From Escherichia coli (GTDB taxonomy: Bacteria; Pseudomonadota; Gammaproteobacteria; Enterobacterales; Enterobacteriaceae): DNA of 344 nt. This document shows, one piece after another, positions 1 through 344 of the stretch (position 1 is its first letter; each line of letters starts with the position of its first letter). The notes below the pieces were generated by a model. The model had not been told where the DNA came from. It was given only the letters and a program-made list of their open reading frames with translations, and made no database searches. The stretch lies in NCBI RefSeq assembly GCF_003334315.1, contig NZ_QOWR01000136.1, one strand, 5' to 3'. Made by a program: the position numbers and the translations under genes.

Positions 1-344
1 CCGATGACTTTGTCATGCAGCTCCACCGATTTTGAGAACGACAGCGACTTCCGTCCCAGCCGTGCCAGGTGCTGCCTCAGATTCAGGTTATGCCGCTCAA
101 TTCGCTGCGTATATCGCTTGCTGATTACGTGCAGCTTTCCCTTCAGGCGGGATTCATACAGCGGCCAGCCATCCGTCATCCATACCACGACCTCAAAGGC
201 CGACAGCAGGCTCAGAAGACGCTCCAGTGTGGCCAGAGTGCGTTCACCGAAGACGTGCGCCACAACCGTCCTCCGTATCCTGTCATACGCGTAAAACAGC
301 CAGCGCTGACGTGATTTAGCACCGACGTAGCCCCACTGTTCGTC
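1..344 (-). mobile_element. Internal fragment of an IS1-family insertion sequence (divergent or mosaic isoform); both element ends lie outside the window
   Basis: The reverse complement of the window matches, along its whole length, the insB portion of IS1 as I recall it (e.g. ...GATGACGGATGGCTGGCCGCTGTATGAATCCCGCCTGAAGGGAAAGCTGCACGTAATCAGCAAGCGATATACGCAGCGAATTGAGCGGCATAACCTGAATCTGAGGCAGCACCTGGCACGGCTGGGACGGAAGTCGCTGTCGTTCTCAAAATCGGTGGAGCTGCATGACAAAGTCATCGG). No terminal inverted repeat or target-site duplication is visible because the window is internal to the element. Identification is from memory of the IS1 sequence, not a database search. Confidence 0.93.
1..344 (-). CDS. insB: IS1 transposase InsB / InsAB' C-terminal region, partial at both ends (5' part of insB and the stop codon lie outside the window)
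   Basis: The minus-strand frame with codons running from 344 down to 3 is open across the window: 114 sense codons and no stop. It translates to [115 protein letters not shown], which is collinear with IS1 InsB as recalled (...[124 protein letters not shown]). It is missing from the supplied ORF track presumably because it has neither start nor stop codon inside the window. Confidence 0.92.

What the first reader, a model, noticed from the sequence alone, without database searches (positions are those of the whole stretch)
1..344. Window lies entirely inside an IS1 element, with insB on the minus strand and absent from the ORF track
The only real coding signal is a minus-strand frame open over all 114 codons that encodes the C-terminal part of the IS1 InsB / InsAB' transposase. 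The ORF track shows only two plus-strand ORFs, which are antisense to this gene. Taking the track at face value would give two spurious hypothetical proteins and miss the transposase. An IS1 copy here marks the locus as mobile-element associated, possibly an insertion into a gene, a plasmid or island junction, or one arm of a composite transposon.
Basis: partly seen in the sequence, partly recalled or inferred. Interest (0 to 1): 0.35.

Follow-up and report, generated by a model that had tools for sequence, protein, structure and literature searches.

The report
Internal fragment of IS1 transposase gene
The window is an ordinary internal piece of the very common bacterial jumping gene IS1, read backwards, and it encodes the catalytic core of the IS1 transposase; the two forward-strand ORFs are artefacts.

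Summary
The minus-strand frame starting at base 344 is open over all 114 codons. It matches the IS1 transposase in Pfam DDE_Tnp_IS1 (E=1e-63) and in NCBIfam NF033558 (127.8 bits, cut-off 100). The DNA is 100% identical to annotated IS1 copies in two E. coli chromosomes, four plasmids (Klebsiella twice, Salmonella, Enterobacter) and a Yersinia artesiana contig. Six of those copies are complete 768-bp elements; the seventh is cut by the start of its record.

In those elements the window is IS1 nt 379-722. That is 46 bp from the right end and 378 bp from the left end. It encodes InsAB' residues 109-222 of 232, which include the whole D-D-E catalytic triad (window codons 342-344, 171-173 and 96-98).

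Substitutions among IS1 isoforms fall mostly on the third codon position of the minus frame (28 of 41 variable sites; 84 synonymous against 31 non-synonymous codon changes). Both plus-strand ORFs acquire stops in most isoforms and match no family, so they are spurious.

One extra: the window is a recombinant. Bases 1-184 are IS1A-type and 185-344 are IS1F-type. This is known biology of low interest. Host and insertion context cannot be recovered from the window.

The parts
1..344 (-). Internal segment of the IS1 insB' / insAB' coding region. It corresponds to IS1 nt 379-722 of 768 and to InsAB' residues 109-222 of 232. Bases 1-2 are a partial codon.
   Evidence: The frame is open. Pfam DDE_Tnp_IS1 E=1e-63, model positions 8-121 of 131. 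NCBIfam NF033558 gives 127.8 bits against a cut-off of 100. The DNA is 100% identical to annotated IS1 CDSs. Coordinates were mapped.
342..344 (-). Codon GAC for the first catalytic Asp (window residue D1, InsAB' D109), in the M-D-E-Q-W motif at the start of predicted strand beta-1.
   Evidence: Conserved in 17 of 18 divergent IS1-family proteins, and the neighbouring E2 is invariant. It lies at the start of beta-1 in the predicted RNase H-like fold.
171..173 (-). Codon GAT for the second catalytic Asp (window residue D58, InsAB' D166), in the W-M-T-D-G-W motif directly after predicted strand beta-4.
   Evidence: Conserved in 16 of 18 sequences. The two exceptions look like degraded copies. 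Its position after beta-4 comes from the model.
96..98 (-). Codon GAG for the catalytic Glu (window residue E83, InsAB' E191), in the Q-R-I-E-R-H-N motif, 24 residues after D58.
   Evidence: At least 90% conserved, and the 24-residue spacer has no gaps in any complete copy. It lies on the long helix after beta-5. The 24-aa D-to-E spacer matches my recollection of Ohta et al. 2002 (J Bacteriol 184:6146), which could not be opened here.
1..184 (-). Tract identical to IS1A/IS1B-type elements (3' part of insB').
   Evidence: There are no differences from K-12 IS1A or from IS1B in this tract, against 10-17 differences from IS1F-type copies.
185..344 (-). Tract identical to IS1F-type elements (5' part of the catalytic domain). 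The recombination junction lies at window 182-184 when judged against IS1F, or within 115-184 when judged against the p18044 copy.
   Evidence: There are 19-20 differences from IS1A/IS1B in this tract and none from IS1F, p18044 or IS1X2-like copies. The chance that such clustering arises randomly is 2e-7 and 2e-5. The reciprocal combination exists in L011.
4..294 (+). Spurious antisense ORF of 96 aa. It lies in the plus frame that shares its third codon position with the sense frame.
   Evidence: No NCBIfam or PHROG hit. Five of 9 isoforms carry two internal stops. Its ratio of 60 synonymous to 54 non-synonymous changes is explained by the shared wobble position.
69..314 (+). Spurious antisense ORF of 81 aa.
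   Evidence: No family hit. Six of 9 isoforms carry one internal stop. The frame shows 16 synonymous against 99 non-synonymous changes.

Best explanation
The window is an internal 344-bp piece of an IS1 insertion sequence in reverse orientation (IS1 nt 379-722 of the 768-bp element). It encodes the catalytic core of the IS1 transposase InsAB'. In a complete element, transcription starts from a weak promoter in the left inverted repeat. Ribosomes usually make only the 91-aa repressor InsA. A rare programmed -1 frameshift at an AAAAAAC motif, about 65 bp upstream of the window in the sense direction, fuses InsA to the insB' frame and gives the 232-aa InsAB'. The shared N-terminal zinc-finger and helix-turn-helix part binds the 23-bp terminal inverted repeats. 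The part encoded by the window folds as an RNase H-like domain whose D109, D166 and E191 coordinate metal ions. That domain nicks the element ends and transfers them into a target, leaving an 8-9 bp target duplication. Shown here: the identity, the reading frame, purifying selection on that frame, the conserved triad, the predicted fold, the anatomy of elements that carry the identical window, and one perfect 9-bp target duplication. Taken from the literature: the frameshift control, InsA repression and the chemistry. The window's isoform is a recombinant of IS1A-type and IS1F-type sequence.
Against: Nothing argues against the identity. There are limits. The window holds no inverted repeat, no insA and no frameshift site, so it cannot show whether this particular copy is complete or active. 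Five of the six exact-match loci whose flanks could both be read lack a target duplication. The structure model has only moderate confidence. The catalytic role of the three residues comes from the literature and from conservation, not from an experiment on this isoform.
Confidence: 0.97

Rival explanations
1. The window comes from a truncated or decayed IS1 remnant and not from a complete, potentially mobile element.
For: The closest non-identical E. coli matches (99.4% and 98.0%, named IS1X2 by NCBI) are pseudogene remnants cut by ISEc12 and carry an internal stop. The window itself shows nothing beyond IS1 nt 379-722.
Against: The window has TGG, not a stop, at the codon that is mutated in those remnants (window 180-182). 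Six of the seven loci holding the exact 344 bases carry a full 768-bp element with both inverted repeats, and the seventh is cut only by the start of its record.
Confidence: 0.1
2. One or both plus-strand ORFs (4-294, 69-314) are real genes antisense to insB.
For: Both are open in the window, at 96 and 81 aa. Plus frame 1 shows a relatively mild ratio of 60 synonymous to 54 non-synonymous changes.
Against: Neither has an NCBIfam or PHROG match. ORF 4-294 has two internal stops in 5 of 9 isoforms, and ORF 69-314 has one in 6 of 9. The mild ratio in plus frame 1 arises because its third codon position coincides with that of the sense frame. In the one record where a 'hypothetical protein' was annotated under the match, the call was on the minus strand, so it was a truncated insB. 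From my own knowledge, mutational analysis of IS1 ORFs (Jakowec et al. 1988) found that only insA and insB are needed; I did not verify this here.
Confidence: 0.01
3. The IS1A/IS1F mosaic pattern is an assembly artefact, a chimeric consensus of several IS1 copies collapsed in a short-read assembly, and not a real recombinant isoform.
For: IS1 is multicopy (median of 10 places per E. coli genome), and collapsed repeats are a common source of chimeras.
Against: The identical 344 bases occur in seven independent records from five genera, including complete chromosomes and plasmids. One of those copies has a clean 9-bp target duplication.
Confidence: 0.02

Closest known systems
IS1 family insertion sequences, isoforms named IS1X2 / IS1F by NCBI and ISfinder
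   Same: The window is 99.4% identical to copies that NCBI labels 'IS1-like element IS1X2 family transposase' and 95.1% identical to IS1F. Bases 185-344 are identical to IS1F-type sequence. The residues in which this isoform differs from IS1A (DRIRR..L...E..L....A.E..V) are shared with them.
   Different: Bases 1-184 differ from IS1F at 17 sites and are identical to IS1A/IS1B instead. The X2- and F-named chromosomal copies examined carry a TGG-to-stop change at window 180-182, which the window lacks.
IS1A / IS1E (K-12 'consensus' IS1, also IS1R) and IS1B
   Same: The architecture, length and end sequences are the same in the elements that carry the window (L001 IRL and IRR are identical to IS1A). 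Window bases 1-184 are identical, and the proteins agree at 105-106 of 114 residues.
   Different: There are 19-20 nucleotide differences, all within window 185-330, giving 94.2-94.5% identity. Nine amino-acid differences cluster between the first and second catalytic Asp.
Retroviral integrase / DDE transposase catalytic cores (RNase H-like fold)
   Different: Sequence identity is only 10-20%. The D-to-E spacer is very short, at 24 residues. No solved IS1 structure is detectable by sequence.

Membership tests
IS1 family transposase (InsAB') | Significant match to curated IS1 transposase profiles above their thresholds | tested here: met
   Pfam PF03400 E=1e-63 over residues 1-114. NCBIfam NF033558 (equivalog) 127.8 bits against a cut-off of 100. 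PHROG 720 E=6.6e-71.
IS1 family transposase (InsAB') | D-D-E catalytic triad with the characteristic short (24-aa) spacer between the second D and the E | tested here: met
   D1, D58 and E83 are present in the window. They are conserved in 17/18, 16/18 and at least 90% of divergent relatives, and the spacer is ungapped. The 24-aa criterion is recalled from Ohta et al. 2002, which is not held in the library.
IS1 family transposase (InsAB') | RNase H-like catalytic fold | tested here: met
IS1 element (complete insertion sequence) | Element of about 768 bp bounded by imperfect inverted repeats of about 23 bp (GGTGATGCTGCCAACTTACTGAT / GGTAATGACTCCAACTTATTGAT) | not testable with these tools
   These lie outside the window. 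Six loci carrying the exact window (L001, L002, L013, L014, L016, L017) meet the feature. L015 is cut by the start of its record.
IS1 element (complete insertion sequence) | Upstream insA overlapping insB' in the -1 frame, with an A6C slippery motif | not testable with these tools
   These lie outside the window. In L001, insA is at IS1 nt 56-331 and AAAAAAC at nt 307, and joining the frames there gives a 232-aa InsAB'. The role of the motif is described in PMC12903888.
IS1 element (complete insertion sequence) | Target-site duplication of 8-9 bp flanking the element | not testable with these tools
   This lies outside the window. Among exact-match loci, only L016 has one (9 bp, CGGTATTTA). 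L001, L002, L013, L014 and L017 have none, which fits later IS1-mediated deletion or recombination between IS1 copies (PMC10569738).
IS1A / IS1E 'consensus' isoform | Near-identity to the K-12 IS1A sequence | tested here: not met
   Identity is 94.2% in the window (20 differences), and the L001 element is 95.6% identical over 768 bp.
IS1X2 isoform (name as applied by NCBI PGAP) | Near-identity to copies labelled IS1X2 | tested here: inconclusive
   Identity is 99.4% and 98.0% to two copies so labelled, but both are truncated pseudogenes. The 100% matches are labelled only 'IS1 family', and the ISfinder reference was not available.

The most novel reading that the evidence does not exclude
The window-type segment marks an IS1 isoform group that is not formally named. 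It would have arisen by gene conversion between IS1A-type and IS1F-type copies. Unlike K-12 IS1F and the X2-like chromosomal relics, it keeps an intact transposase and is currently mobile on multidrug-resistance plasmids of several genera. Recombination would in that case be rescuing decaying IS1 lineages.
Probability: 0.15. Interest if true: 0.15.

Novelty: already known. Interest (0 to 1): 0.06.

Why it matters
The main value is for annotation. A window that lies wholly inside a gene yields no ORF in a track that drops ORFs running off the ends, while antisense 'shadow' ORFs are reported in its place. Recognising the IS1 fragment prevents two false hypothetical proteins. It also flags the locus as repeat DNA: IS1 has a median of 10 places per E. 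coli genome, is prone to assembly breaks, and is associated with deletions, gene inactivation and resistance-plasmid rearrangements (PMC10569738). It adds nothing new to transposon biology.

Tried and rejected
An Rfam scan of the window at E<=1 found nothing on either strand. A PDB sequence search found no relative, only chance hits at E>0.1. Ohta et al. 2002 (PMC151954), the source of the DDE assignment, is not held in the library, so the triad was tested by conservation and fold prediction instead. A search for literature on IS1 gene conversion or mosaics returned no paper that deals with IS1 mosaicism; PMC4444293 covers conversion in rRNA operons and prophages only. I checked whether 'hypothetical protein' annotations under the match in some plasmid records were antisense ORF calls; the one examined was a truncated insB on the correct strand. 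L010 (IS1D) was left out of the frame analysis because an indel breaks the ungapped comparison. No attempt was made to infer the host or the insertion site, because identical copies occur in five genera and at least six contexts.

Full report
OBSERVATION. The 344-base window was read on both strands. The minus-strand frame beginning at base 344 translates without a stop through 114 codons: [114 protein letters not shown]. The other two minus frames carry 6 and 8 stops. At 60 aa or more, the mechanical ORF list gives only the plus-strand ORFs 4-294 (96 aa) and 69-314 (81 aa). By its own description that tool omits ORFs that run off either end, which is why the real frame is missing. An open frame of this length is only moderately improbable on its own: 0.8% of mononucleotide shuffles keep it open. 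The case therefore rests on homology and on substitution patterns.

IDENTITY. The translation matches Pfam DDE_Tnp_IS1 (PF03400) at E=1e-63, over model positions 8-121 of 131. It matches the NCBIfam equivalog model NF033558 'IS1 family transposase' at 127.8 bits against a curated cut-off of 100, and PHROG 720 'transposase' at E=6.6e-71. The two plus-strand ORFs match nothing in NCBIfam or PHROGs. At the DNA level, 4,965 of 5,426 complete E. coli genomes hold a match, with a median of 10 places per genome. Two chromosomes (NZ_CP063487.1, NZ_CP104526.1) are 100% identical, and there the window lies under a minus-strand CDS annotated 'IS1 family transposase, programmed frameshift'. Exact copies are also on four plasmids. 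These are K. pneumoniae pKPT698-tmexCD and pS90-2.2, Salmonella Senftenberg pNDM-SAL beside blaCMY-4, and E. cloacae pNDM1_EC14653. The best phage matches reach only 94-96% and include the IS1 of phage P1. A scan of about 100,000 species-representative genomes with a 160-base stretch across the middle of the window found one exact match, in Yersinia artesiana IP42281, and the whole window is exact there too. Rfam finds nothing.

ANATOMY. In the exact-match loci the element is bounded by imperfect 23-bp inverted repeats, GGTGATGCTGCCAACTTACTGAT and GGTAATGACTCCAACTTATTGAT, that lie exactly 768 bp apart. The window corresponds to IS1 nt 379-722 in reverse orientation. That puts it 46 bp from the IRR end and 378 bp from the IRL end. 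insA occupies nt 56-331, the AAAAAAC slippery motif is at nt 307, and the insB ORF is at nt 250-753. Joining the frames at the motif yields a 232-aa InsAB'. The window encodes residues 109-222 of that protein, which are InsB ORF residues 44-157 of 167. The published anatomy is the same: 768 bp, IRL and IRR, the InsA repressor, InsAB' made by a -1 frameshift at A6C, N-terminal zinc-finger and HTH motifs, a catalytic DDE motif and 8-9 bp target duplications (PMC12903888 and PMC12428005).

WHICH STRAND CODES. I compared the window with eight other distinct IS1 isoform sequences that are 91-99.4% identical: IS1A, IS1B, IS1F, IS1X2-like copies and unnamed ones. Of 41 variable columns, 28 are third codon positions of the minus frame, 8 are first positions and 5 are second positions. 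Codon changes in that frame are 84 synonymous against 31 non-synonymous. The unrelated frames give 5-16 synonymous against 99-108 non-synonymous. Plus frame 1, which holds ORF 4-294, gives 60:54. This happens because its third codon position falls on the same bases as the sense frame's third position, the classic cause of long antisense 'shadow' ORFs. ORF 4-294 has two internal stops in 5 of 9 isoforms, and ORF 69-314 has one in 6 of 9. Both are therefore spurious. Some plasmid records annotate a 'hypothetical protein' under the match. In the one I examined it was a truncated insB call on the correct strand.

AN EXTRA FINDING: MOSAICISM. Against K-12 IS1A, all 20 differences lie at window 185-327 and none at 1-184. 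Against IS1F, all 17 lie at 9-181 and none at 182-344. Against the p18044 copy, all 10 lie at 45-114. Clustering this extreme would arise by chance with P of about 2e-7 and 2e-5. L011 carries the reciprocal combination, so all four combinations of the two halves exist, which is the signature of recombination. Over the full 768 bp, the L001 element alternates between IS1A-like and IS1F-like patches. Across the seven exact-match loci the identical window sits in five different full-length element sequences. The four variant elements differ from the L001/L002 element at 16-22 sites, all outside the window, and the plasmid and chromosomal copies carry four different protein accessions. Gene conversion or recombination among co-resident IS1 copies is the simplest explanation. 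From my own unverified memory, IS1 sequence types and their patchy relationships were described in the early 1990s (Umeda & Ohtsubo 1991, cited; Lawrence, Ochman & Hartl 1992). I do not regard the mosaic as new, and an assembly artefact is unlikely given seven independent records.

WHAT CANNOT BE SAID. The window holds no element end, so three things are unknown: whether this copy is complete, what it is inserted into, and its host. Exact copies occur in Escherichia, Klebsiella, Salmonella, Enterobacter and Yersinia. The nearest non-identical E. coli matches (99.4% and 98.0%) are relics cut by ISEc12, with TGG changed to a stop at window 180-182. The window has the intact TGG.

VERDICT. The feature is a textbook IS1 fragment: already known, of low interest, and mainly useful as an annotation warning.

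Noticed in passing
window 1-184 versus 185-344 (junction at 182-184): The window is a recombinant of IS1 isoforms. The first part is identical to IS1A/IS1B and the second part to IS1F-type copies. L011 carries the reciprocal combination, and the full 768-bp elements are patchworks with several breakpoints.
   Followed up: yes
L001 2440-2454 and 3223-3237; L002, same coordinates: Two E. coli chromosomes carry the identical 768-bp element with the same IRL-side flank but different IRR-side flanks, and neither has a 9-bp target duplication. In L001 the element abuts a putA that lacks its N-terminus. This suggests an IS1-mediated adjacent deletion or recombination between IS1 copies in at least one of the two strains.
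   Followed up: partly
L016 2446-2454 and 3223-3231: A perfect 9-bp target-site duplication, CGGTATTTA, flanks an IS1 that carries the exact window on E. cloacae plasmid pNDM1_EC14653. It is a clean footprint of transposition.
   Followed up: yes
L004, L005 and L008 at locus position 781 (window 181, in codon 180-182): Chromosomal copies named IS1X2 and IS1F share a TGG-to-stop change in the transposase frame. L004 and L005 lie next to ISEc12 (beside hlyE in L004) and are truncated. They appear to be an old, vertically inherited dead copy, and they make up most of the E. coli matches at 99% or above.
   Followed up: partly
L017 (Yersinia artesiana IP42281 contig NZ_CACVAD010000041.1); window exact at 3285-3628: This is the only one of about 100,000 species-representative genomes with the exact 160-base junction stretch. 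It carries a complete 768-bp IS1 that differs from the L001 element at 17 sites outside the window and has no target duplication. An E. coli-type IS1 in Yersinia implies recent horizontal transfer.
   Followed up: partly
L006, L007, L014, L016: first 23 nt of the element (IRL): The left inverted repeat comes in variants: GGTAATGGTGCC... in these copies, GGTGATGCTGCC... in IS1A-type copies and GGTAATGCTGCC... in IS1F. IRR also varies at one base (..CTTACTGAT versus ..CTTATTGAT). I did not test whether these end variants co-vary with the N-terminal DNA-binding part of the transposase.
   Followed up: no
L013 and L015 (plasmids pKPT698-tmexCD and pNDM-SAL): Exact-window IS1 copies sit next to resistance genes: aph(3'')-Ib/aph(6)-Id and qnrB4 on one plasmid, and blaCMY-4 within about 250 bp on the other. 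This fits the known role of IS1 in resistance-region rearrangements.
   Followed up: no
P0001: The best hit in the representative library is a 203-aa protein that matches the query in two separate stretches, at 334.6 bits, which exceeds the score of the 100%-identical hit. It may be a predicted protein that spans a tandem or rearranged IS1 segment.
   Followed up: no
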